From NCBI GenBank assembly GCA_016179185.1, contig JACORW010000080.1, positions 18,629 to 82,628 of the forward strand: 64,000 nucleotides of DNA. Reading direction: 5' to 3'. The DNA is from Gammaproteobacteria bacterium (GTDB taxonomy: Bacteria; Pseudomonadota; Gammaproteobacteria; Eutrophobiales; Eutrophobiaceae). Numbering within the stretch: position 1 is the stretch's first letter; every line of letters starts with the position of its first letter. Below the pieces are notes generated by a model that had not been told where the DNA came from, made no database searches, and saw only the letters and a list, made by a program, of their open reading frames with translations. Shown piece by piece: positions 5,422-64,000 of the stretch. The translations under genes and the position numbers were made by a program.

Positions 5422-5734
5422 TACTTCGTTTCAGCGGAGCTTTACCGAATTCTTCCGGCACAAGTTCTCCAGTGCCCGCACTCGCGGCCGATGCGCAGGG
5501 GTCAGCACGTCATTGAAGCGCGGCCGCGCACGGCAATCATGACGCGTGCCTGGGCGGTTTTGTCCACTTGCGCATGGCGTGCACATAACTAATAGTGTGT
5601 TGTTCGCGGAAGTTATGACCTTCGAGGACTGCAAGGTCCGACGGCGCCGTGTGTACTATTGCGATCCCGACGCAGAAATACCCGGTCTCCGGAAGCTCCC
5701 CTCCAGACTCCGCCGTACCCCGGCGCGAATTTTC

Positions 5735-5749
5735 TGTATACTGTATACA
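5735..5749. promoter_or_regulatory. 15-bp perfect palindrome TGTATAC-T-GTATACA (candidate GntR-family operator), 20 nt upstream of the aldehyde dehydrogenase start
   Basis: Read directly. The reverse-complement form TGTATAC-A-GTATACA recurs at 12065..12079. It contains two GT-AT-AC cores of the kind GntR/FadR-type regulators recognise. Confidence 0.5.
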
Positions 5750-12015: not shown

Positions 12016-12064
12016 GGTTCCCCCCGGCAGAGGGCAGCTGGGCGCCCGGATGTCAATCGAAAAC

Positions 12065-12079
12065 TGTATACAGTATACA
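12065..12079. promoter_or_regulatory. 15-bp perfect palindrome TGTATAC-A-GTATACA (second copy of the candidate GntR operator) in the divergent TBDR / Rieske-oxygenase promoter region
   Basis: Read directly. It lies 11 nt upstream of the ATG at 12090 and about 50 nt from the divergent TBDR start at 12015. Confidence 0.5.
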
Positions 12080-12089
12080 ATATAGACCC

Positions 12090-32060: not shown

Positions 32061-34364
32061 ATGAATCGCATCGCTGCGCTGTGGGCCGACACTTGCATTT
32101 CGTTGGTGGCCGGATTGGTGCTGGCCACCTGCGCGGTTCCCGCCCATGCAGCCGAACTGGAAGAAATTGTCGTCACGGCCACCCGGCGCCAGGAATCCAC
32201 GCAGGACATCCCCATCTCGGTGACCGCATTTTCCGCCGAGTCCATCGAGTCCCTCGGTTTTGCGCAGTCTTTCGACATCGCCTCCCAGGTTCCGAACCTG
32301 AAATTCATGGGCGAAACGGCCAGCACCATTCCGTTCATTTTCCTGCGCGGCATCGGCAATACCTCGTTCTTTGCCAACAGCATCAATCCGGTCGCGCTGT
32401 ACGTGGATTCGGTGTACCTGGGCCAGAACATCACCCAGGGGTTCCAGTTGTTTGACCTGGAGCGCGTGGAAGTGCTGCGCGGCCCGCAGGGGACATTGTT
32501 CGGACGCAACACCACGGCGGGGCTGGTACATTTTCTGACCCGCAAGCCTTCCGTTGACGACGGCTTGAATGCGCGCGCGGAGATCACCGGCGGCGACTTC
32601 GGCCAGTTCGACGTGGAAGGCGCCGTCGGTTTCCCGCTGGGCGATCGCGCCGCGGCGCGAATTTCAGCGATCCAGCAGATGGGCAGTGGCATGTACGAAG
32701 TGGAAAACCCATTTCGTGACGTGGACAAGACCGGGGATGTGGACATGCGCTCCGTCCGTGCCCAGCTTTTGTGGTCGCCCACGGACGATGTGGAAGTGCT
32801 GATCCGCGGCCATTGGGGCGAGGACAATTCGGAACTCAATGCCCTGAAGCCCGGCTATATCGTCAGCCCGTTCGGCGTTCCCAACTGCCCGCCCGGCGCC
32901 GTCTCGGGCGCCCTGAACAACGGCTGCTCGGATCCGTTCGGCATCGGGCTGACCGTGGATCCGGACTTCGAAGATGTGCAGTTCACCTTCGATCCGTTCC
33001 AGGAACTGGAAGGCGGCGGCGTGTCGGGAGAAATCAACTGGATCATCGGCGACTATACGGTGACCTCCCTGACGGCATGGAACACGGCCGACATGACGCG
33101 GCTGGAGGACGATGACGCCAATATTCTCGCGATTCTGAGCGATACGTTTCTCGCCGACGCCGAATTTTTCAGCCAGGAGTTGCGGCTGACGTCCAATCTC
33201 GACGGGCCTTTCAACTGGATCCTCGGCGCGTACTATTACACCGACGAACTGGATTCGGCGCTGCACTTCAACAACGTGGATCTTGGTCCGCCGCCGGGCA
33301 CCGGCATTCCCGTGCCGGTCGGCGTCGCCCAGAACATTTTTCAGGAAACCGAGAGCTGGTCGGTGTTCGGCGAGGTTACCTACAGGATCCTGGAACGGCT
33401 GACCGCACGTGCCGGCTTGCGCCTGACGGAAGATCAACGCAGCGTGGACATTGATTCGTTCTTCATGAACGCCCTGTTGCTGCCGCGGGAGCTGCCGATA
33501 TCGCGGAGCGTGGCGCGCAACGCCCTGCTGTTCCCCCTCATCCTGCCCGCGTCGCTGAAAGACGACTGGTTTGAGTGGAGCGGCCGGTTCGCGCTCGACT
33601 ACGAGTTTGCCGAACATCAGATGGTGTATTTCAGTGCCGCGCGCGGTTTCAAGGGCGGCGAGTTCAACGGCGGCGCGCTGCTGGACCCGAGCGAGGCCAC
33701 CATTGCCGATCCGGAGTTCATGGACAGCTACGAACTGGGTTACAAGGGCACGCTGCTCGATCGCAGCCTGCAGCTCAACGTCACGGGATTTTTCATGCAG
33801 TACGACGACCAGCAGGTGTTGATTTCCGGCGCGACGCCGTTCGGCCTGCTCCCGTCGCTGCAGAATGCGGCATCCTCGGACATCAGGGGTGTGGAAGTGG
33901 AAATGCAGTGGCAGCCGGACGACAACTGGTTCCTGCTGCTGGGTGGAGCCCATCTGGACGCCGAGTTCGATCGGTTTCTTGACCCGGCCCTGGGCGTTGA
34001 CCGGGAAGGAAACCGGCTGGCCCATGCCCCGGAATGGACCGTCAACGGCATCGTGCGCTACACGCAGCCCATCGGCGGGGGCACGGGTTCCGCGCAGGTG
34101 GACTGGTCGTGGAATGATGACCAGTTTTTCACCGTCGAAAATCTGCCGAGCCTGCGCGAGGGCGACTATGCCGTGGTCAATGGCCGGGTCAGCTACCGGT
34201 TCTGGAACGATCGCGTGGAACTGGCGCTGTTCGTAAAGAATATTTTCGACGAGGGATACAAGGCCACCGGGTTTGACACCGCCAGCGCGGGATTCGGCGC
34301 CCATGTCTATGTCATGAGCCGTCCGCGTACCTTTGGTGGGCAGTTGATCCTGAACTACGACTGA
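32061..34364 (+). CDS. TonB-dependent receptor 3
   Basis: Table ORF 32007..34364, trimmed to the ATG at 32061 ('MNRIAALWADTCISLVAGLVLATCAVPAHA'). 'LEEIVVTATRRQESTQDIPISVTAF', 'VEVLRGPQGTLFGRNTTAGLVHF'. Terminus 'GGQLILNYD'. Confidence 0.9.
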   Translation: MNRIAALWADTCISLVAGLVLATCAVPAHAAELEEIVVTATRRQESTQDIPISVTAFSAESIESLGFAQSFDIASQVPNLKFMGETASTIPFIFLRGIGNTSFFANSINPVALYVDSVYLGQNITQGFQLFDLERVEVLRGPQGTLFGRNTTAGLVHFLTRKPSVDDGLNARAEITGGDFGQFDVEGAVGFPLGDRAAARISAIQQMGSGMYEVENPFRDVDKTGDVDMRSVRAQLLWSPTDDVEVLIRGHWGEDNSELNALKPGYIVSPFGVPNCPPGAVSGALNNGCSDPFGIGLTVDPDFEDVQFTFDPFQELEGGGVSGEINWIIGDYTVTSLTAWNTADMTRLEDDDANILAILSDTFLADAEFFSQELRLTSNLDGPFNWILGAYYYTDELDSALHFNNVDLGPPPGTGIPVPVGVAQNIFQETESWSVFGEVTYRILERLTARAGLRLTEDQRSVDIDSFFMNALLLPRELPISRSVARNALLFPLILPASLKDDWFEWSGRFALDYEFAEHQMVYFSAARGFKGGEFNGGALLDPSEATIADPEFMDSYELGYKGTLLDRSLQLNVTGFFMQYDDQQVLISGATPFGLLPSLQNAASSDIRGVEVEMQWQPDDNWFLLLGGAHLDAEFDRFLDPALGVDREGNRLAHAPEWTVNGIVRYTQPIGGGTGSAQVDWSWNDDQFFTVENLPSLREGDYAVVNGRVSYRFWNDRVELALFVKNIFDEGYKATGFDTASAGFGAHVYVMSRPRTFGGQLILNYD

Positions 34365-34390: not shown

Positions 34391-34551
34391 CGGGTGGTCC
34401 GATCCCATGTTGGCGGACCGTGTGCCGCAGGGACAGCGGCACCCGAGCCTACAGGGCAGATTGCTGCTCCTGCGCAATCTGCATTCCCGCCATCCCTGGC
34501 GGTCAGACTGTATTCACGGCGTGTCTGCCAACATGGGATCGGACCACCCGT
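34391..34551. mobile_element. MITE-like repeat, copy 2 (inverted relative to copy 1, with an internal deletion)
   Basis: The reverse complement matches 19361..19570 end to end except for about 50 bp missing from the middle and scattered substitutions. It sits between convergent genes. Confidence 0.7.
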
Positions 34552-37329: not shown

Positions 37330-38823
37330 ATGGCCGTCGCAAAACTGAATACGAAGCCGGTACACATCAAGGATCCGTCGCTGTTCCGCACCGAAGCCTA
37401 CGTCAACGGTGAGTGGGTGCAGGCCGCCGACGGCGCCGTCATTGACGTAACCAACCCCGCGGACGGATCGTTGCTGGGCACGATCCCGAAACTTGACGCG
37501 GCCATGGTGCGCGGGGCGATCGACGCCGCCCACGCGGCCTGGCCGGCCTGGCGCGCCACGCTGGCGAAGGACAAGGCGCGCATCCTGCGCCGCTGGTATG
37601 AGTTGATCATGGAAAACCAGAAGGATCTGGCCGTGATCATGACGTTGGAGCAGGGCAAGTCGCTGACGGAGTCCATGGGCGAGATCGCCTATGCCGCCTC
37701 GTTTGTCGAGTGGTTTGCCGAGGAGGGCAAGCGCGTCTACGGCGACACCATCCCGCAGCACATGCACAACCGCCGCATCGTTGTCACCAAGGAGCCGGTG
37801 GGCGTGTGCGCCGCGATCACGCCGTGGAACTTTCCCGCCGCGATGATCACGCGGAAATGCGCGCCGGCGCTGGCGGCCGGATGTACGGCCATAGTCAAGC
37901 CCGCTTCGGAAACGCCGTTTTCTGCGCTGGCGCTGGCAGTGCTGGCCGGGCGGGCCGGTGTGCCGAAGGGCGTGTTCAACGTGGTCACCGGCAAGGCCGT
38001 GGTGGTGGGCGCGGAAATGACGTCGAATCCAGTCGTGCGCAAGCTGAGTTTCACCGGTTCAACGGAGATCGGATCGCTGTTGATGGCCCAGTGCGCCCCC
38101 ACGGTGAAGAAGCTGTCCATGGAACTGGGCGGAAATGCGCCGTTCATCGTGTTCGACGATGCAGACCTGGATGCTGCGGTCACCGGAGCGATGGCGTCGA
38201 AGTACCGAAACAGCGGCCAGACCTGCGTCTGTGCGAACCGGCTGCTCGTGCAGGAAGGCATATATGATGAATTCGTGCGCCGGCTCGCCGGTGCCGTGCA
38301 AAGCCAGTTGCGTGTCGGCAATGGGCTGGAAGAGGGCGTGTCACAGGGGCCGCTCATTAATACTGCGGCGGTGGAGAAGGTGGAACAGCACATCCGGGAC
38401 GCAGTCGGGAAGGGTGCGCGCGTTGTCGTCGGCGGTAAACGGCACGCGCTGGGCGGAACCTACTTCGAGCCCACGATCCTTGCGAACGTGACCCCGGCCA
38501 TGGCAGTGGCGCGCGAAGAGACCTTCGGCCCGCTGGCACCGGTGTTCCGGTTCAGGACGGAAGACGAGGCGATCCACATGGCTAACGACACCGAGTTCGG
38601 CCTCGCTGCGTATTTTTACACCCGCGATCTGGGCCGCGCCTGGCGCGTGGGCGAGGCGCTGGAATATGGAATGGTATGCGTCAACAGCGGAATACTCTCC
38701 ACGGAAGTCGCGCCCTTCGGCGGCATGAAGCACTCCGGCTTCGGCCGCGAGGGGTCGAAGTACGGGATCGAGGAGTATCTGGAGATCAAGTATTGGTGCT
38801 TGGGAGAGATTGACAAAAAATAA
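37330..38823 (+). CDS. gabD: Succinate-semialdehyde dehydrogenase
   Basis: 'MELGGNAPFIVFDDADLDAAV...YRNSGQTCVCANRLLVQ' closely parallels E. coli GabD as I recall it. It is followed by gabT. Confidence 0.85.
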   Translation: MAVAKLNTKPVHIKDPSLFRTEAYVNGEWVQAADGAVIDVTNPADGSLLGTIPKLDAAMVRGAIDAAHAAWPAWRATLAKDKARILRRWYELIMENQKDLAVIMTLEQGKSLTESMGEIAYAASFVEWFAEEGKRVYGDTIPQHMHNRRIVVTKEPVGVCAAITPWNFPAAMITRKCAPALAAGCTAIVKPASETPFSALALAVLAGRAGVPKGVFNVVTGKAVVVGAEMTSNPVVRKLSFTGSTEIGSLLMAQCAPTVKKLSMELGGNAPFIVFDDADLDAAVTGAMASKYRNSGQTCVCANRLLVQEGIYDEFVRRLAGAVQSQLRVGNGLEEGVSQGPLINTAAVEKVEQHIRDAVGKGARVVVGGKRHALGGTYFEPTILANVTPAMAVAREETFGPLAPVFRFRTEDEAIHMANDTEFGLAAYFYTRDLGRAWRVGEALEYGMVCVNSGILSTEVAPFGGMKHSGFGREGSKYGIEEYLEIKYWCLGEIDKK

Positions 38824-38991
38824 GTGGCTAGTGGCTGGTGGCTAGTGGCTGGCAAGAAAGAATTGAATACATACTTGACGCAGATTAACGAAGCGCCACG
38901 CTTACGTTAACAAACCAGCCACCAGCCACCAGCCACCAGCCACCAGCCACCAGCCACCAGCCACCAGCCACCAGCCACCAGCCACCAGCCA
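38824..38991. repeat. Inverted heptanucleotide-repeat element 1: (GTGGCTR)x4 - 63-nt spacer - (CCAGCCA)x~11
   Basis: Read directly. The left arm starts at the base after the gabD stop, and the right arm ends about 18 nt before the gabT ATG. The arms are reverse complements (imperfect). The spacer contains TTGACG (38875..38880). Confidence 0.9.
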
Positions 38992-39009
38992 CTCAATGGA
39001 ACCAAATTA

Positions 39010-40290
39010 ATGACGACTAACACAGAACTTCACCGCCGTCGCGAAGCCGCCGTCGTCCGCGGTGTCGCCAACATCCTGTCCGTCTACGCCGAGCGGGCGT
39101 TGAACGCCGAACTGTGGGACGTCGAGGGCCGGCGCTACATTGATTTCGCCAGCGGCATCGCCGTGGTGAACACCGGCCACAACCATCCGCGCGTGCGGGC
39201 GGCCGTCGAGGCCCAGTTGCAGAAGTTCAGCCACACGTGCTTTCAGGTTACGCCGTATGAGAATTACGTGGCGCTGGCGGAAAAGCTGAATGCCATCGTG
39301 CCGGGCAGCGAGCCGAAGAAGACCATATTTCTCACCACGGGTGCCGAGGCCGTGGAGAACGCGGTCAAGATCGCGCGCTTCGCCACCGGCCGGTCAGGCG
39401 TCATCGCCTTCAGCGGCGCATTCCACGGCCGCACGATGCTGGGCATGGCGCTCACCGGCAAGGTCGCGCCCTACAAGGTCGGATTCGGGCCGTTCCCCGC
39501 GGATATCTACCACGCGCCGTTCCCGATCCCCTATCACGGCGTGGACGTGGCCGATGCGCTGAAGGCGCTGGATCACCTGTTCAGGTCCGAGATCGATCCG
39601 GCCCGGGTCGCCGCGATGATCATCGAGCCGGTGCTGGGCGAGGGCGGGTTCTACGTCGCCCCGCCTGAGTTCCTGCAGGCGCTGCGCAGGATCTGCGATG
39701 AGAACGGCATCGTATTCATCGCCGACGAGATCCAGACCGGCTTCGCCCGTACCGGGCGCATGTTCGCCATCGAGCACGCCGGCGTGGAACCGGACATCAT
39801 GACGCTGGCGAAGAGCCTCGCCGGCGGATTTCCGTTGTCCGCCGTCACCGGCAAGGCAAAGATCATGGATGCCCCCGGTCCCGGCGGACTGGGCGGTACC
39901 TATGCCGGGTCGCCCATTGCCTGCGCCGCGGCCCTGGCCGCCATTGAGGTGATCGAGAAGGAAAAGCTGTGCGATCGCGCCCAGCAAATCGGGCAACTGA
40001 TTCGCAGCCGGCTCAGGACCATGCAGGAAAAGTTGTCCTGCATCGGGGAGATCCGGGCCCTGGGAGCAATGGTGTCCATCGAACTGGTGAAGAATCACAA
40101 CGCCGCGGAGCCGGATGCGGACCTGACCAAGGCACTGGTACAGGAAGCCGCGAAGCGCGGCCTCGTGATCCTGCCCTGCGGCGTGCGCGGCAACGTGATC
40201 CGGTTCCTCGCGCCGCTGACGATTTCCGACGCGCTGCTGGAGGAAGGTATGGACATCCTCGTGGCCGCGCTTGAGCACATTGCTCATTAG
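39010..40290 (+). CDS. gabT: 4-aminobutyrate--2-oxoglutarate transaminase
   Basis: Class-III aminotransferase. 'GIAVVNTGHNHPRV', 'DEIQTGFARTGRMFA', PLP-lysine context 'TLAKSLAGGFPLSAV'. Confidence 0.9.
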   Translation: MTTNTELHRRREAAVVRGVANILSVYAERALNAELWDVEGRRYIDFASGIAVVNTGHNHPRVRAAVEAQLQKFSHTCFQVTPYENYVALAEKLNAIVPGSEPKKTIFLTTGAEAVENAVKIARFATGRSGVIAFSGAFHGRTMLGMALTGKVAPYKVGFGPFPADIYHAPFPIPYHGVDVADALKALDHLFRSEIDPARVAAMIIEPVLGEGGFYVAPPEFLQALRRICDENGIVFIADEIQTGFARTGRMFAIEHAGVEPDIMTLAKSLAGGFPLSAVTGKAKIMDAPGPGGLGGTYAGSPIACAAALAAIEVIEKEKLCDRAQQIGQLIRSRLRTMQEKLSCIGEIRALGAMVSIELVKNHNAAEPDADLTKALVQEAAKRGLVILPCGVRGNVIRFLAPLTISDALLEEGMDILVAALEHIAH

Positions 40291-54268: not shown

Positions 54269-54390
54269 GGTATCTCGTGAAGCGTATCTCGTGAAGCGTG
54301 TCTCGTATCTTGGACAAACGCTGTCATGCTTGCAGGGCAGATTCGGAGGAATCTTGTCCTGCGAGATACGAGATACGAACGACGAGATAC
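54269..54390. repeat. Intercistronic inverted array of GTATCTCG / CGAGATAC octamers (long imperfect hairpin)
   Basis: Read directly. Three 'G(T/G)(A/G)TCTCGT' units on the left (two as the 14-mer GTATCTCGTGAAGC) face three 'GAGATAC' units on the right across an ~40-nt loop. The array fills the gap between 54397 (stop of the small ORF) and the MotA-like start. Confidence 0.8.
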
Positions 54391-56744: not shown

Positions 56745-58280
56745 TCAAGTTCCTGCGCCGACGGTTTCGGTGCAGCGTATCTCCACCGGCGCCGGCGCGG
56801 CGCCGGCCGCGAGCGTCAATTCGACGCGCGCGTCCCGGAAACCGGGGCGCGTGCCGACGATCACATGGCGGCCGGGCCTCAACGTGATCTCCTTGCTGAC
56901 AAAGCGGCCCAGCTTGCCGACCCGGTACACGGTTACCTCGGTCTTGCCGTCGGACACGAATGTTACGGCAATCGGGACGCGCGCCTCCTGCAGCAACGCG
57001 GTCAGCGCGGCGATCTGCCGCTTCAGTTTCGTTCCCGGCCCGCTGATCTCCCCGGAATGCAGCAGCAGCGCAGTGGTTTCTTCATATACCGTGTCGTCAG
57101 AGAGCCGCTCCGGCCGCGCAATTGCCAGTGACAATTGCCTGTCCAGATCGCTGCGCCGCGTGGCATTCTCGATCCCGGACTGCGCCGCCAGCAGATTCGC
57201 GTCCAGCTTCAGTGCCGCCTCGTACGCCGAGATTGCGGCGGCCCAGTCCTCGGACTGTTCGGCGGCCTGCGCCGCCGCCAGGTGCCGCCCGATCTCCGCC
57301 GAGGTCAGGCCGGTTTCGGCCTGACGCAGCGCGTCCGCGGCTTCGGGCGAGCCCGGCCGGAGGCGCAGGGCGGCGCTGAAATGCCCACGCGCCGCCCCCA
57401 GATCGCCGTTGTCGAGGGCCGCGAATCCGGCGCTCATTGCGGCCCGGTATGCCCGCGCGCCGAGTTCGCTGCGGGCGTTTTGCAGTCGTTCCCGGGCCGG
57501 TTGAAACTCTGGATCGAGGTCGCTGGCCTTTTGGTATGCCTCCGCCGCGCCGGGCAGATCCCCCGCGCCGGACAGCTCCTCGCCGCGCCGGATCAGCTCG
57601 ATGACCTGATCCATGTGTCCGGCGCGCTCCGCTCCCTTGTGCGCGCCGGGGTCATCCGGGCGGATCAACAATGCCGTATGAAACTGCCCGGCCGCGGCCT
57701 GGCCGTTGCCTTCGTTAAGCGCCTGATTGCCGCGCGCCATCGAGTCCGTGAAAACTGCGTCGGCCCGCCGGATCAACGCTTTGAACCGCGGCAGCGCCGA
57801 CTGGAAGGCATCGCGCGCCGACGCGTAATCCAGGGATCGGTAGAAACGATCGCCTGCGGCGAGACTGTCCGCCCCGGCGCGGTAATCGGCCCCGGCCCAG
57901 GACTGCACGCCCATCGCCAGCAACGCCTGGTCCAGTTCCCGCAACCGCTCCAACAGCTCCTGGGCGGCGGCCCGCGCTGCGCCGATTTCCGTTTTCGTCA
58001 ATTCCGATTGGGTGTCTCCAGGCTTTGGCACCGGTTCCGGGCGCGGGTCAGGCTTTGAGACAGCCGGCTTCGGGGGGGCGGATTCGGTCCGGCCCTGCCA
58101 CTGGGGAAGAACGAAGATCACGAACAGCGCGGCAAGCGTCAGCAAACCGATGACGATGGCGGGCCAAAGCAACGGGCTGCCGGGAGTCCCGGTCACGGGC
58201 GGCGCAACCTCACCCGGCGCGTTGCCGAGCTTTACCGGCGCGGGCGCGATGCGATCAAAGGGATGAGTGGGTTGTTCCAT
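56745..58280 (-). CDS. Membrane-anchored TPR-repeat protein with a PEGA-like C-terminal domain
   Basis: Table ORF to 58343, trimmed to the ATG at 58280 ('MEQPTHPF'). TM 'LLWPAIVIGLLTLAALFVIFVL', then repeated Ala/Leu-rich 34-mer-like units. The tail 'VTFVSDGKTEVTVYRVGKLG...LRPGRHVIVGTRPGFRDARVEL' is PEGA-like. Its stop abuts the next ATG. Confidence 0.65.
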   Translation of the reverse strand: MEQPTHPFDRIAPAPVKLGNAPGEVAPPVTGTPGSPLLWPAIVIGLLTLAALFVIFVLPQWQGRTESAPPKPAVSKPDPRPEPVPKPGDTQSELTKTEIGAARAAAQELLERLRELDQALLAMGVQSWAGADYRAGADSLAAGDRFYRSLDYASARDAFQSALPRFKALIRRADAVFTDSMARGNQALNEGNGQAAAGQFHTALLIRPDDPGAHKGAERAGHMDQVIELIRRGEELSGAGDLPGAAEAYQKASDLDPEFQPARERLQNARSELGARAYRAAMSAGFAALDNGDLGAARGHFSAALRLRPGSPEAADALRQAETGLTSAEIGRHLAAAQAAEQSEDWAAAISAYEAALKLDANLLAAQSGIENATRRSDLDRQLSLAIARPERLSDDTVYEETTALLLHSGEISGPGTKLKRQIAALTALLQEARVPIAVTFVSDGKTEVTVYRVGKLGRFVSKEITLRPGRHVIVGTRPGFRDARVELTLAAGAAPAPVEIRCTETVGAGT

Positions 58281-58449
58281 GGCAATAAGGGCGCGGTTGC
58301 AATCATTGCATGCATTTATCGGCCGGCGTAAAGCCGGCCCCACAAGAATCTCTGGAATCCGAACGCCCTTGTGGGGCCGGGTTCATCCCGGCCGGGAGGC
58401 GCGCATCGGAAAATAGACACTTGAGGTCCGGAAGACCTCGTGCTTGATG

Positions 58450-62530: not shown

Positions 62531-63253
62531 ATGACCAGGGTGGCGGTGGTGACCGGTGGGACGCGCGGCATCGGCGCAGCCATTTCGGTGGCATTGAAGA
62601 ACGCCGGCTACAAGGTGGCGGCCAACTACGCCGGCAATGTCGAGGCGGCGGACAAATTCAGCAAGGCCGCGGGGATCGCGGTGTACAGGTTCGACGTCGG
62701 TGATTTCGAGGCCTGCCAGCGCGGTGTGAAGCAGATTGAGACGGACCTGGGGCCCATTGATGTCGTCGTCAACAACGCCGGCATCACCCGCGACGGCACA
62801 TTGCAGAAAATGTCCTTCGAGCAGTGGAATGCGGTGATCCAGACCAATCTCACCTCGTGCTTCAACATGTGCCGCGCGGTCATTGACGGCATGCGCGCCC
62901 GGGGTTTCGGCCGCATCGTCAACATCGGCTCCATCAACGGCCAGGCCGGGCAGTATGGCCAGGTCAATTACGCCGCGGCCAAGTCCGGGATTCACGGCTT
63001 CACCAAGGCCCTAGCCCAGGAAGGCGCAGGCAAGGGCATTACCGTGAACGCCATTGCCCCGGGCTACATTGATACCGACATGGTGCGCGCCGTGCCGCCG
63101 AACGTGCTGGAAAAGATCATCGCGAAAATCCCTGTGGGGCGACTCGGCAAGGCCGAAGAAATCGCCCGTGGGGTGTTGTTTCTCGTGGCGGATGGCGCCG
63201 GTTTCATTACCGGATCGACGCTGAGCATCAATGGCGGACAGCATATGTATTGA
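62531..63253 (+). CDS. phbB: Acetoacetyl-CoA reductase (SDR family)
   Basis: 'VAVVTGGTRGIGAAI', 'NNAGITRD', 'SINGQAGQYGQVNYAAAKSG' (S...YxxxK). Overall very PhbB-like. 'AAGGAG' RBS. Confidence 0.8.
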   Translation: MTRVAVVTGGTRGIGAAISVALKNAGYKVAANYAGNVEAADKFSKAAGIAVYRFDVGDFEACQRGVKQIETDLGPIDVVVNNAGITRDGTLQKMSFEQWNAVIQTNLTSCFNMCRAVIDGMRARGFGRIVNIGSINGQAGQYGQVNYAAAKSGIHGFTKALAQEGAGKGITVNAIAPGYIDTDMVRAVPPNVLEKIIAKIPVGRLGKAEEIARGVLFLVADGAGFITGSTLSINGGQHMY

Positions 63254-63257
63254 AGCA

Positions 63258-63488
<231 letters not shown>

Positions 63489-63501
63489 TTCACCGGTATC
63501 C

Positions 63502-63873
63502 ATGTCCGACCTCGTCTGCTGGAAATGCGGCGCTCCGTTCGGAGACATCCCGCTGCCGTTGTCGCGGTTCGCGGAGTGCAAGACCTGCCATGCGCCGCTG
63601 CATGTTTGCCGCCAGTGCGAGTTCTACGACACCGGCGTGGCGAAACACTGCCGCGAACCCGTTGCCGAGGAAGTGAAGGACAAAGCCCGCGCCAACTTCT
63701 GCGACTACCTGCGCCCGCGGCCCGGCGCATTTCAGGCAGATGACGGGTTGGCCGCGGTCAAGGCGCGATCAGAGCTTGAATCCCTGTTCGGCATGGTGCC
63801 TGGAACAGCGCCGCAATCGCCGACTAATGCAGATAAGGCCCGTGAGGAGTTGGAGCGGTTGTTCAAGAAATAA
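63502..63873 (+). CDS. Cys-rich zinc-ribbon-like protein of unknown function
   Basis: 123 aa. 'CWKCG...CKTCH...CRQCEFY...HCRE...FCDY' then a helical acidic/basic tail. Bracketed by heptamer arrays on both sides. Confidence 0.6.
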   Translation: MSDLVCWKCGAPFGDIPLPLSRFAECKTCHAPLHVCRQCEFYDTGVAKHCREPVAEEVKDKARANFCDYLRPRPGAFQADDGLAAVKARSELESLFGMVPGTAPQSPTNADKAREELERLFKK

Positions 63874-64000
63874 GTGGCTGGTGGCTGGTGACTAGTGGCT
63901 GGAAAAGCCTGACAACGATCAGCCTTGACAGTATTTTCGGCAGTGCAAAGACTCCTTGGCCCACCAGCCACCAGCCACCAGCCACCAGCCACCAGCCACC
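63874..64000. repeat. Inverted heptanucleotide-repeat element 3 (truncated by the window end): (GTGGCTG-type)x4 - ~57-nt spacer - (CCAGCCA)n
   Basis: Read directly. It starts at the base after the stop at 63873. The spacer contains TTGACA (63925..63930). The right arm runs off the window. Confidence 0.85.

What the first reader, a model, noticed from the sequence alone, without database searches (positions are those of the whole stretch)
38824..38991. Inverted heptanucleotide-repeat array filling the gabD-gabT intergenic region
Seen: directly after the gabD stop come four units GTGGCT(A/G). A 63-nt unique spacer follows, then about eleven perfect tandem CCAGCCA units ending about 18 nt before the gabT start. 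The two arms are reverse complements of each other (one mismatch per 7 or 14 nt), so DNA or RNA could form a stem of up to ~28 bp in many alternative registers. The same architecture occurs twice more (63258..63488 and 63874..64000+), always starting within 0-5 nt of a stop codon. All three spacers contain TTGAC(A/G). Heptamer tandem repeats are known from cyanobacteria (STRR). I do not know a described element with opposed complementary heptamer arrays of unequal length bracketing a spacer. Possible roles (inference): a register-variable terminator or RNA-stability hairpin, a slipped-strand length-variable 5' leader for the downstream gene, or a protein-binding array.
Basis: seen in the sequence. 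Interest (0 to 1): 0.7.

Follow-up and report, generated by a model that had tools for sequence, protein, structure and literature searches.

The report
Inverted heptamer-repeat hairpin between genes
Directly after the stop codon of one gene sits a run of 7-base repeats, then a short spacer, then a longer run of the complementary 7-base repeat; this real, hairpin-forming microsatellite belongs to a kind already seen in Xanthomonas and Haemophilus, and its role here is still unproven.

Summary
There are three TGGCTGG/CCAGCCA elements at the stated coordinates, plus a fourth with another heptamer (GTATCTC/GAGATAC) at 54270-54390. All four share one layout: stop codon, 0-6 nt, 4-6 'GT.....' units, a 45-61 nt spacer, 6-20 complementary units, 17-31 nt, start codon.

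In eight related metagenomic lineages the orthologous gabD-gabT gap holds the same layout with six different heptamers. The 7-nt period, arm complementarity and stop-codon abutment are conserved; the sequence is not.

TGGCTGG/CCAGCCA arrays occur in many phyla with a fixed polarity:
- The G-rich reading follows stops (34 vs 10).
- The C-rich reading precedes starts (45 vs 14).
- Paired arrays are always G-arm first (19 vs 0).

Copy number varies from 3 to 22 among related phage-like contigs.

The architecture is not undescribed. Xanthomonas GGGAATC repeats form 70-75 such inverted pairs per genome. The Haemophilus hmw (ATCTTTC)n repeat forms a 5'-UTR hairpin that RNase III cleaves.

Most likely this is a transcribed, length-variable microsatellite hairpin acting post-transcriptionally. 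A tolerated, functionless microsatellite remains a serious rival. It is a new member of a known kind and of moderate interest.

The parts
38821..38823 (+). stop codon (TAA) of the succinate-semialdehyde dehydrogenase gene (gabD, 37330-38823); element W1 starts at the next base
38824..38852 (+). W1 5' arm: GTGGCTA GTGGCTG GTGGCTA GTGGCTG +G (4 units, 14-nt super-period). Its two TAG triplets plus the gabD TAA give stops in all three frames.
   Evidence: frames read from the sequence
38853..38913 (+). W1 spacer (unique sequence). It contains TTGACG at 38875-38880, then 17 nt, then CACGCT, which would place a start site at about 38910, the first base of the 3' arm. This is an inference; the promoter scan did not call it.
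38914..38992 (+). W1 3' arm: (CCAGCCA) x 11.3, perfect. It has no start or stop codon in any frame and is the most C-over-G-skewed 78-nt stretch of the + strand (z 5.3).
39010..40290 (+). 4-aminobutyrate aminotransferase gene (gabT). A weak GGAA ribosome-binding site lies outside the arms.
63258..63300 (+). W2 5' arm: (GTGGCTG GTCGCTG)-type, 6 units, 4 nt after the TGA stop of the acetoacetyl-CoA reductase-like SDR gene (62531-63253)
63301..63345 (+). W2 spacer with CTTGACA, then 16 nt, then GACCAT
63346..63488 (+). W2 3' arm: about 20 units, CTAGCCA x ~13 then mixed CCAGCCA. It ends 13-16 nt before the ATG of a 123-aa Cys-rich ORF (63502-63873).
63874..63902 (+). W3 5' arm: GTGGCTG GTGGCTG GTGACTA GTGGCTG +G, directly after the TAA stop of the 123-aa ORF
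63903..63960 (+). W3 spacer with CTTGACA, then 17 nt, then AAGACT. The scan tool also calls a weak promoter-like site here (CTGACA-17-TATTTT).
63961..64000 (+). W3 3' arm: (CCAGCCA) x at least 5.7, cut by the window end
54362..54390 (-). W4 5' arm in the sense of the flanking minus-strand genes: GTATCTC GTCGTTC GTATCTC GTATCTC +G. It starts 6 nt after the TGA stop (54399-54397) of an 89-aa signal-peptide ORF.
54312..54361 (-). W4 spacer (50 nt) with its own small inverted repeat GGACAA..TTGTCC
54270..54311 (-). W4 3' arm in sense: AAGATAC GAGACAC GCTTCAC GAGATAC GCTTCAC GAGATAC (6 units). It ends 31 nt before the ATG (54238-54236) of the next minus-strand gene.

Best explanation
The element is a paired (inverted) heptanucleotide microsatellite. 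I infer that it is transcribed as part of the gabD-gabT intercistronic RNA.

The 5' arm, (GUGGCUR)4, pairs with any four of the eleven (CCAGCCA) units. This gives a roughly 28-bp, slightly mismatched stem whose foot abuts the gabD stop codon. The rest of the C-rich arm stays single-stranded as a leader free of start and stop codons, ending just upstream of the gabT ribosome-binding site.

Most likely the stem acts after transcription in one or more of three ways:
- as a substrate for the double-strand RNase III, as in the Haemophilus hmw hairpin;
- as a 3' exonuclease barrier that sets the relative stability of the two cistrons;
- because it begins less than 15 nt from the stop codon, as a brake on the terminating ribosome, as shown for REP elements.

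Unit number changes by slippage in each arm independently, so stem and leader length, and hence expression, are tunable.

Shown here: the anatomy, the pairing potential, the position, the polarity, the conservation of architecture with sequence turnover, and copy-number variation elsewhere. Inferred: transcription across the element, RNase III or ribosome involvement, and any effect on expression.
For: 1. Predicted stems begin 1-3 nt after the stop. For the window elements, energies lie 7-9 sd below shuffled sequence; for most relatives, 4-8 sd.
2. Eight lineages with 84-88% identical GabT and conserved synteny all carry a heptamer-periodic inverted repeat right after the gabD stop. They use six different heptamers: GTGGCTG, GTATGTC, GTATCTC/GTGAAAC, GTTACAA, GTGGTAG, AGGTAGT. 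The two arms always change together.
3. The same holds at a second site, SDR to the 123-aa ORF.
4. Polarity is tied to transcription direction. In independent genome and viral data sets, a stop lies within 15 nt before the G-reading 34 times and before the C-reading 10 times. A start lies within 30 nt after the C-reading 45 times and after the G-reading 14 times.
5. Paired arrays are G-first 19 times and C-first 0 times.
6. Arrays prefer 4 units (49 arrays, against 34 with 3 units and 10 with 5), which is about 28 nt and long enough for RNase III.
7. Copy number ranges from 3 to 22 among related contigs. One arm alone changed between L119 and L129.
8. Experimental precedents exist. The hmw (ATCTTTC)n hairpin is cleaved by RNase III, and the hairpin is needed for repeat-number change (PMC12721329). 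REP stems within 15 nt of a stop stall ribosomes (as cited in PMC12306157).
9. There is no Rfam family, no intrinsic terminator and no convincing promoter that would explain the element otherwise.
Against: - There are no transcript data for this uncultured organism.
- Sense and antisense fold energies show no consistent asymmetry, so nothing proves selection on the RNA rather than the DNA.
- Many TGGCTGG arrays elsewhere are solitary, with no partner arm, so a hairpin cannot be the whole story.
- At orthologous sites some relatives carry a REP-like palindrome or nothing at all (L311, L315, L310). The element is therefore dispensable.
- In W2 the two arms have amplified different variant units. 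This shows no ongoing selection for perfect pairing.
- The ribosome-binding site lies outside the stem, so there is no simple translational masking of gabT.
Confidence: 0.4

Rival explanations
1. Tolerated microsatellite with no function. Heptamer slippage expands units inside pre-existing intergenic palindromes. Purifying selection only removes harmful placements. Deletion bias then presses the arrays against the stop codon.
For: - Site occupancy turns over among close relatives: heptamer family A, family B, a REP-like palindrome or nothing.
- The arms of W2 diverge by amplifying different variants.
- Same-composition control heptamers also form arrays in viral contigs: 25 and 17 loci, against 56 for CCAGCCA.
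- Heptanucleotides are reported as the commonest long repeat class in prokaryotes (Mrazek 2007, as summarised in PMC4679880).
- The polarity can be explained by avoidance. (TGGCTGG)n carries GTG/CTG start codons and GG runs, which are bad in a leader. (CCAGCCA)n is a Rho-loading-like C-rich tract, which is bad right after a stop inside an operon.
Against: - The architecture is kept at the same site in eight lineages while the sequence is replaced.
- The 19-to-0 G-first rule and the peak at 4 units rather than a monotonic decline look like constraint.
- The same two-heptamer family (GTATCTC plus GTGAAGC) sits at three different loci in three genomes. In-situ birth does not explain that.
Confidence: 0.3
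2. Promoter-bracketing element. The spacer carries the promoter of the downstream gene. The 3' arm is then exactly its 5' leader. The 5' arm serves as the upstream gene's 3' end and as an anti-leader that pairs only in read-through transcripts.
For: - All three CCAGCCA-family spacers of the window share CTTGAC(A/G), then 16-17 nt, then xAxxxT, about 7 nt before the first unit of the 3' arm.
- The scan tool calls one weak promoter-like site in the W3 spacer.
- C-rich arrays commonly abut start codons or Shine-Dalgarno sites as leaders in other taxa.
Against: - No promoter is called in the W1 spacer, and the -10-like hexamers are poor.
- TTGAC is absent from the spacers of W4 and of elements in L122, L124, L125, L128, L310, L311, L034, L037 and L077. 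Several of those spacers (10-30 nt) are too short for a promoter.
- gabD-gabT synteny suggests one operon.
Confidence: 0.15
3. Non-autonomous mobile or copied element (REP/REPIN- or MITE-like). Heptamer-array hairpins of a given family are spread to permissive sites just downstream of stop codons by a trans-acting enzyme or by gene conversion.
For: - The same families recur at different loci and genomes. CCAGCCA is at three window loci and in L122 and L317. GTATCTC/GTGAAGC is at W4, L125 (gabD-gabT) and L317 (ORF to ald).
- Elements are replaced by REP-like palindromes at the same site.
- All families read 5'-GT...AC-3' at their outer ends.
- The same genome carries REP-like doublets and a MITE-like element.
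Against: - Spacers of same-family copies are unrelated, apart from weak similarity among W1-W3.
- No target-site duplications were seen, and no transposase was identified.
- Solitary arrays are common.
Confidence: 0.1
4. Rho-dependent attenuator. The long C-rich, G-poor 3' arm is a Rho loading site in front of gabT, and the G-rich arm partly masks it.
For: The W1 and W2 3' arms are the two most extreme C-over-G 78-nt windows on the + strand of the 64-kb window (56% C and 13% G, z 5.3; 49% C and 14% G, z 4.2). They are 79 and 140 nt long, which is the size Rho needs (textbook knowledge).
Against: Other families at the same site (GAGATAC, TTGTAAC, ATACGAT, CTACCAA) are not C-rich. Rho loading therefore cannot be the conserved property. 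It was not tested.
Confidence: 0.07
5. Recombination hotspot. (TGGCTGG)n contains the E. coli Chi octamer GCTGGTGG once per unit. The two arms carry it on opposite strands, so both are active for RecBCD moving outward from the spacer.
For: This can be read from the sequence: 24 of the 32 GCTGGTGG matches in the window lie in the arrays. The fixed G-first orientation is compatible with a directional DNA process.
Against: - Outside the arrays the octamer occurs only 8 times in 64 kb, 5 on + and 3 on -. The whole-window chance expectation is 3.3, so there is no Chi-like density or skew.
- Other heptamer families at the same sites lack it.
- The arrays occur in phyla that do not use this Chi sequence or RecBCD (general knowledge).
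Confidence: 0.03

Closest known systems
Xanthomonas GGGAATC (and Nostoc GGGGAYT) intergenic heptameric repeats, including 70-75 convergent inverted pairs per genome (Rehm et al. 2015, PMC4692102)
   Same: - 7-nt unit and tandem arrays of 2-26 units, with a mode of 4.
- About 90% are intergenic.
- They lie much closer to the upstream ORF's stop (average 28 nt, some overlapping it) than to the next ORF.
- The G-rich strand is on the coding strand downstream of ORFs.
- Arrays are frequently paired on opposite strands around a spacer.
- Position is conserved, but length and sequence vary between related species.
- Function is unresolved.
   Different: - The unit here (TGGCTGG, GTATCTC and others) has no G3-4 tracts, so the G-quadruplex rationale does not apply.
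- Several unrelated heptamers fill the same site in relatives.
- The 3' arm is often much longer than the 5' arm.
Haemophilus influenzae hmw1A/hmw2A (ATCTTTC)n repeat: 5'-UTR hairpin cleaved by RNase III (Rapun-Araiz et al. 2025, PMC12721329)
   Same: A heptanucleotide microsatellite is transcribed. About 10 units form one arm of a long, slightly mismatched hairpin upstream of a start codon. Repeat number tunes expression. The hairpin and RNase III are required for expression and for repeat-number change.
   Different: - There, the partner arm is a non-repetitive G-rich stretch, and the element lies in a 5'-UTR downstream of a mapped promoter of a phase-variable adhesin.
- Here both arms are repeats, the element lies between two metabolic genes, it abuts a stop codon, and nothing has been tested.
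REP / BIME / REPIN elements of enterobacteria and pseudomonads
   Same: - Intergenic imperfect palindromes placed just after stop codons, often inside operons.
- They stabilise upstream mRNA and stall terminating ribosomes when within 15 nt of the stop (PMC12306157, citing Liang, Rudd and Deutscher 2015).
- They are family-structured and dispensable, with occupancy differing between relatives.
   Different: REPs are single conserved palindromes of 20-40 nt with a GTAG foot, linked to RAYT transposases. They are not tandem 7-nt arrays. No RAYT was found here.
TAACTGA direct repeats of marine Beggiatoaceae, cyanobacteria and Bacteroidetes (MacGregor 2015, PMC4679880), and cyanobacterial STRR heptamers
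   Same: Heptamer tandem arrays, mainly intergenic, directly upstream of start codons in place of a Shine-Dalgarno site. Their phylogenetic distribution is patchy across phyla. Binding of one cold-shock-domain protein per heptamer has been suggested.
   Different: They are almost always direct only (169 direct sets and 1 inverted). They are AT-rich with stop codons in all frames, and have no stop-codon-abutting partner arm.

Membership tests
Long heptanucleotide simple sequence repeat (LSSR, sensu Mrazek 2007) | Head-to-tail copies of a 5-11 nt unit, longer than chance allows | tested here: met
   TRF gives period 7, 11.3 and 20 copies, 97-100% matches. There are 44 matches against 0.8 expected.
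Long heptanucleotide simple sequence repeat (LSSR, sensu Mrazek 2007) | Copy number varies between related sequences | tested here: inconclusive
   For the same heptamer it is shown elsewhere: 3-22 units in related phage-like contigs. One arm differs between L119 and L129. The window's own arrays have no population data. Short imperfect arrays are identical across 2-4 samples.
Xanthomonas-type paired heptameric intergenic repeats | Two arrays of the same heptamer on opposite strands, convergent, close together in an intergenic region | tested here: met
   Four elements in the window. Across loci, 19 pairs are G-first and 0 are C-first.
Xanthomonas-type paired heptameric intergenic repeats | Nearer to the upstream ORF's stop than to the next ORF, with the G-rich strand on the coding strand | tested here: met
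   0-6 nt from the stop in all four window elements. Stop before G-reading 34, before C-reading 10.
Xanthomonas-type paired heptameric intergenic repeats | G-tracts (G3 or longer) able to form a G-quadruplex | tested here: not met
   The units TGGCTGG, GTATCTC, GTTACAA and GTATGTC have no G3 tract.
hmw-type microsatellite hairpin processed by RNase III | Repeat units form one arm of a long stable hairpin in the transcript | tested here: inconclusive
   Predicted stems of 28-42 nt, z -7 to -9. This is prediction only, and transcription across the element is not shown.
hmw-type microsatellite hairpin processed by RNase III | Cleavage by RNase III and dependence of expression on it | not testable with these tools
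   Needs RACE or RNA-seq in wild type versus an rnc mutant, or in vitro cleavage.
REP / REPIN | A conserved 20-40 nt imperfect palindrome repeated many times per genome, with a GTAG-type foot and an associated RAYT | tested here: not met
   The arms are tandem 7-mers, the spacers are unrelated, and no RAYT was identified. Separate REP-like doublets do exist in the same genome (58320-58394).
REP / REPIN | A stem starting within 15 nt of the upstream stop codon (the subset that stalls ribosomes) | tested here: met
   Stems begin 1-7 nt after the stop in the window elements and in 8 relatives.
Intrinsic (Rho-independent) terminator | A short GC-rich stem with a small loop, followed by a U-tract | tested here: not met
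   No terminator-like site in 38700-39100 or 63200-64000. No T-run follows the 3' arms.
Chi recombination hotspot | The octamer is over-represented genome-wide and strand-skewed | tested here: not met
   There are 8 copies outside the arrays in 64 kb, 5 on + and 3 on -. Only one window was tested.
Known RNA family (Rfam 15) | A match at the gathering score | tested here: not met
   0 matches in the whole window.
Cyanobacterial STRR / Beggiatoaceae TAACTGA repeats | The specific heptamers (for example CCCCAGT-type, TAACTGA) as direct repeats | tested here: not met
   The units differ and the arrangement is inverted.

The most novel reading that the evidence does not exclude
Heptamer-array hairpins are a family-structured, actively copied class of stop-codon-proximal elements with a unit grammar (5'-GT-N5 on the first arm, N5-AC on the second, period strictly 7, preferred length 4 units, always 'GT-arm first'). 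A trans-acting factor would read this grammar, for example a cold-shock-domain protein binding one heptamer each, an RNase III-linked process as in hmw, or a REP-transposase-like enzyme. On this reading, arrays of one family in a genome form a co-regulated or co-mobilised set, and the pan-phylum TGGCTGG/CCAGCCA arrays are its most widespread family.
Probability: 0.15. Interest if true: 0.75.

Novelty: new member of a known kind. Interest (0 to 1): 0.5.

Why it matters
Heptanucleotide repeats are reported as the commonest long microsatellites in bacteria, yet only one case (Haemophilus hmw) has a tested mechanism. The Xanthomonas pairs were explained by G-quadruplexes. The elements here share the Xanthomonas architecture, position and four-unit preference but cannot form quadruplexes. 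That argues the general property is the 7-nt period plus arm pairing, not the G-tracts.

The orthologous-site series, with six heptamers in one layout, is a natural covariation experiment. It points to structure or process rather than sequence.

Two rules are simple and testable, and they separate RNA-level function from neutral slippage:
- The G-rich reading follows stops and the C-rich reading precedes starts.
- Pairs are always G-first.

If these hairpins tune the ratio of neighbouring cistrons through repeat number, they would be a widespread, evolvable expression dial in environmental bacteria. They also break short-read assemblies.

Tried and rejected
- **Source look-up.** The exact GabT protein is not on record. 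The organism is known only as an uncultured gammaproteobacterium. Its GabT is 87% identical to that of RIFCSPLOWO2_02_FULL_61_13.
- **Literature string search.** Searching for CCAGCCACCAGCCA and TGGCTGGTGGCTGG gave no bacterial paper.
- **Strand test.** Sense versus antisense folding energies showed no consistent bias.
- **Intrinsic terminator.** None was found.
- **Sigma-70 promoter in the spacers.** Only one weak call, in W3. TTGAC is not found in other lineages' spacers.
- **W4 flanks.** I first read W4 as lying between divergent genes. Translation and third-position GC showed that both flanks are minus-strand genes, so W4 obeys the same stop-to-start layout.
- **Chi hypothesis.** There is no density or skew of GCTGGTGG outside the arrays.
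- **Is CCAGCCA unique?** Same-composition controls also form arrays in viral contigs (25 and 17 loci against 56). It is favoured about 2-3 fold, not unique. One of my control scans was by mistake a rotation of the previous control and adds nothing.
- **Metagenome scan for close GabT relatives.** These served as a background set: 722 kb held 2 heptamer arrays of 3 or more units and no inverted pair by my detector, although L146 is in fact a GGGGAT/ATCCCC pair that the detector missed.
- **Other classes considered.** An integron attC site was rejected because the core-site order is opposite and the context is a syntenic metabolic operon. A Tn7/Mu-like transposon end was rejected because 7-nt sites are too short and there is no cargo. 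Both rejections rest on reading the sequence and on general knowledge.
- **Assembly artefact.** Rejected for existence, because arrays occur in complete isolate genomes (Zymobacter, Sodalis, Kutzneria). It is not rejected for exact unit counts.
Full report
**1. Observation**

The sequence is as described.
- Directly after the TAA stop of an aldehyde dehydrogenase gene (37330-38823) come GTGGCTA GTGGCTG GTGGCTA GTGGCTG (38824-38852).
- A unique stretch of about 61-63 nt follows, then 11.3 perfect CCAGCCA units (38914-38992).
- These end 17-18 nt before the ATG of a class-III aminotransferase gene (39010-40290).

The two genes pass NCBIfam's succinate-semialdehyde dehydrogenase and GABA transaminase models, so 'gabD' and 'gabT' are fair names.

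Two more copies lie at 63258-63488 and at 63874 to the window end. Each starts 0-4 nt after a stop codon. The repeat matches 44 times against 0.8 expected by chance, and the arms are 90-93% complementary in many registers.

A fourth element with the same layout but different heptamers lies at 54270-54390. I first took it to sit between divergent genes. Translation and third-position GC show that both neighbours are minus-strand genes. In their sense it reads:
- TGA stop, then 6 nt;
- GTATCTC GTCGTTC GTATCTC GTATCTC;
- a 50-nt spacer;
- six GAGATAC/GCTTCAC units;
- 31 nt, then ATG.

All four window elements therefore share one layout: stop, 0-6 nt, 4-6 units beginning GT, a spacer of 45-61 nt, 6-20 complementary units, 17-31 nt, start.

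**2. Source and relatives**

The window comes from an 88-kb metagenomic contig of an uncultured gammaproteobacterium. Its GabT is 84-88% identical to proteins on syntenic contigs, one of them named Gammaproteobacteria bacterium RIFCSPLOWO2_02_FULL_61_13.

In every one of these lineages the gabD-gabT gap begins, 0-4 nt after the stop, with a heptamer-periodic inverted repeat. The heptamer differs between them:

| Locus | First arm | Middle | Second arm |
|---|---|---|---|
| L122 | GTGGCTG-type x4 | short spacer | CCACCAG x2 |
| L124 | GTATGTC-type x4 | spacer | ATACGAN x3-4 |
| L125-127 | GTATCTC, GTGAAAC | spacer | GAGATAC, GCTTCAC |
| L128 | GTTACAA x3 | 50-nt spacer | TTGTAAC x3 |
| L129/130 | GTGGTAG-type x5 | GGGGG/CCCCC top | CTACCAA x3 |
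| L119-123 | same as L129/130, about 2 fewer units | same | unchanged |

What is conserved is the 7-nt period, the complementarity of the arms and the position at the stop codon. The sequence is not conserved.

A second orthologous site, acetoacetyl-CoA-reductase-like gene to the 123-aa ORF, behaves the same way:
- The window has the CCAGCCA family.
- L310 has AGTGAAA/TTTCACT-type arms.
- L311 has AAAAGT/ACTTTT-type arms.
- L317 keeps only remnants of the CCAGCCA family, with another palindromic element inserted.
- L315 has a 34-nt gap with no element.

Downstream of the ORF, L317 carries the GTATCTC/GAGATAC family between convergent genes. L311 carries a REP-like doublet there, and L310 carries nothing.

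Occupancy therefore turns over and the elements are dispensable. The same families recur at different loci and genomes: GTATCTC with GTGAAGC is at W4, at L125 and at L317.

**3. Folding**

RNAfold places the foot of the stem 1-3 nt after the stop codon. Energies lie 7-9 sd below shuffles for the window elements and 4-8 sd below for most relatives. Sense and antisense energies show no consistent difference, so folding alone cannot say whether RNA or DNA is the relevant molecule. There is no intrinsic terminator and no Rfam family. The likely ribosome-binding site of gabT lies outside the arms.

**4. The TGGCTGG/CCAGCCA heptamer elsewhere**

These span Acidobacteriota, Gemmatimonadota, Planctomycetota, Actinomycetota, Bacteroidota and Alpha-, Beta- and Gammaproteobacteria, including complete isolate genomes. 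The arrays are therefore not assembly artefacts.

The full layout with this same heptamer occurs in a Caulobacteraceae MAG (twice), a Burkholderiales MAG, Blastocatellia, Gemmatimonadaceae and others.

A test that treats both strands alike gives a clear polarity:
- A stop codon lies within 15 nt upstream of the G-rich reading 28 times, against 7 for the C-rich reading, in genome loci. In viral contigs the counts are 6 against 3.
- A start codon lies within 30 nt downstream of the C-rich reading 27 times against 12 in genome loci, and 18 against 2 in viral contigs.
- The stop codon often abuts the first unit ('TAG TGGCTGG').
- Paired arrays are G-arm first in 19 cases and C-arm first in none.

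Because an inverted repeat reads the same on both strands, G-first is a real architectural rule.

Array length peaks at 4 units: 49 arrays, against 34 with 3 units and 10 with 5.

In a family of related phage-like contigs, (CCAGCCA)n directly abuts the ATG of a lipoprotein-like gene, with n ranging from 3 to 22. That is direct evidence of slippage-type hypervariability.

The heptamer is favoured but not unique. Same-composition control heptamers give 25 and 17 viral loci against 56.

In 722 kb around more distant GabT homologues I found only two heptamer arrays of 3 or more units. The window has four paired elements in 64 kb, so such elements are enriched in particular lineages.

**5. What is known**

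- Mrazek 2007 (as summarised in PMC4679880) found heptanucleotides to be the commonest long repeats in prokaryotes.
- Rehm et al. 2015 (PMC4692102) described 186 GGGAATC arrays in Xanthomonas campestris. About 90% are intergenic, on average 28 nt from the upstream ORF against 160 nt to the next. The mode is four units, and 70-75 cases are two arrays in convergent orientation. Function was unresolved and G-quadruplexes were proposed.
- Rapun-Araiz et al. 2025 (PMC12721329) showed that the Haemophilus hmw (ATCTTTC)n repeat is transcribed. Ten units form one arm of a long hairpin, RNase III cleaves it and raises expression, and transcription, hairpin and RNase III are all needed for repeat-number change.
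- REP stems within 15 nt of a stop codon stall terminating ribosomes (PMC12306157, citing Liang, Rudd and Deutscher 2015).

I found no paper that mentions this particular heptamer in bacteria.

**6. Explanation**

I commit, at about 0.4, to a transcribed microsatellite hairpin:
- The G-rich arm pairs with four of the C-rich units to give a roughly 28-bp imperfect stem at the gabD stop.
- The stem is a likely RNase III substrate and exonuclease barrier. Being within 15 nt of the stop, it may also brake the terminating ribosome.
- The unpaired C-rich units form a leader without start or stop codons.
- Slippage in either arm retunes the system.

Shown: anatomy, pairing potential, position, polarity, architecture conserved through sequence turnover, and copy-number variation elsewhere. 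Inferred: transcription through the element, the nucleases involved, and any effect on expression.

The main rival (0.3) is a tolerated, functionless microsatellite seeded in intergenic palindromes, with polarity produced by avoidance of harmful placements.

Lesser rivals:
- A promoter in the spacer (0.15). CTTGAC, 16-17 nt and xAxxxT would place a start site exactly at the first unit of the 3' arm in W1-W3. The motif is missing in all other lineages, and the scan calls only one weak site.
- A copied or mobile REP-like element (0.1). The same family occurs at several loci, but the spacers are unrelated.
- A Rho loading site (0.07). The 3' arms are the most C-over-G-skewed stretches of the window, but other families are not C-rich.
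- Chi (0.03). The array contains GCTGGTGG once per unit, but the octamer shows no Chi-like density or skew outside the arrays.

**7. Verdict**

This is a real feature and a new member of a known but poorly understood kind. Its value lies in three points:
- the orthologous series of six heptamers in one layout;
- the polarity and G-first rules;
- the four-unit preference in a heptamer that cannot form quadruplexes, which questions the quadruplex reading of the Xanthomonas repeats.

Interest is moderate (0.5).

Noticed in passing
window 34391-34550: A MITE-like element with 28-nt terminal inverted repeats (96% complementary, 104 nt apart) lies just after the gene ending at 34364. Similar 'GCCGTGAATnnGTCCATGTAGGCTCG'-containing palindromic elements sit in intergenic regions of relatives (L119 5270-5460, L124 3315-3503, the L128 3' end, and inside the L317 spacer).
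   Followed up: partly
window 58320-58394; also L122 5275-5385 and 5930-6000, L124 4280-4330, L311 3372-3464: A REP-like doublet (GGCCGGCGTAAAGCCGGCCCCACAAG / CTTGTGGGGCCGGG..CCCGGCC) is a second family of intergenic palindromes in this lineage. In L311 it occupies the site where the window has heptamer element W3.
   Followed up: partly
window 5730-5748 and 12059-12084: CTGTATAC-type near-palindromes (TTTTCTGTATACTGTATAC; AACTGTATACAGTATACAATATA) lie in two intergenic regions. They look like operator sites, possibly SOS-box-like. They were not examined.
   Followed up: no
L212, L213, L216, L217, L223, L225-L227, L230, L231, L234, L238, L240, L244, L246, L250, L262 (viral contigs): In related phage-like contigs, (CCAGCCA)n directly abuts the ATG of a lipoprotein-like gene (MKPLLALLALLLAGC...). 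Here n ranges from 3 to 22, with no room for a Shine-Dalgarno site. This is a hypervariable leader, possibly a contingency locus.
   Followed up: partly
L001-L118 and L211-L266 (array length census): TGGCTGG/CCAGCCA arrays peak at 4 units (49, against 34 with 3 and 10 with 5), although the search floor was 3. Xanthomonas showed the same four-unit mode, where it was ascribed to G-quadruplex formation. That explanation cannot hold for this heptamer.
   Followed up: partly
window W1-W4; L122, L124, L125, L128, L129, L310, L317: Across seven or more heptamer families, the units of the first arm begin with GT (GTGGCTG, GTATCTC, GTGAAGC, GTATGTC, GTTACAA, GTGGTAG, GTGAAAA, GTGTCCC). Units of the second arm end with AC, so every element reads 5'-GT...AC-3' at its outer ends. 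Only L311 departs from this. The families may be related, so the statistics are weak.
   Followed up: partly
L146 91-118 and about 190-217; L153 3-39: In a more distant lineage there is an AGGGGAT x4 array, a ~70-nt spacer and an ATCCCCY x4 array, forming an inverted pair. At the homologous site of a relative there is a different heptamer array (CTGTCCC x5) at a contig end. This is another case of heptamer turnover at one site.
   Followed up: no
P0122, P0123, P0125-P0127 and other closest homologues of the 123-aa ORF (window 63502-63873): The nearest homologues of the small Cys-rich ORF sit on very short contigs (0.8-1.6 kb). This fits short-read assemblies breaking at repeat arrays on both sides of this gene. 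The ORF itself matches no Pfam or NCBIfam family, and some sources mislabel its relatives 'ribosomal protein L40E'.
   Followed up: partly
window 38821-38845: The gabD TAA stop plus the two TAG triplets of the GTGGCTA units fall in three different reading frames within 25 nt. In L119 and L129 every unit of the first arm starts with TAG, so the 7-nt period places stops in all frames.
   Followed up: no
window 57541-57592: TRF reports an 18-nt tandem repeat (TCCCCCGCGCCGGACAGA x2.8) inside a minus-strand coding region. It was not examined.
   Followed up: no
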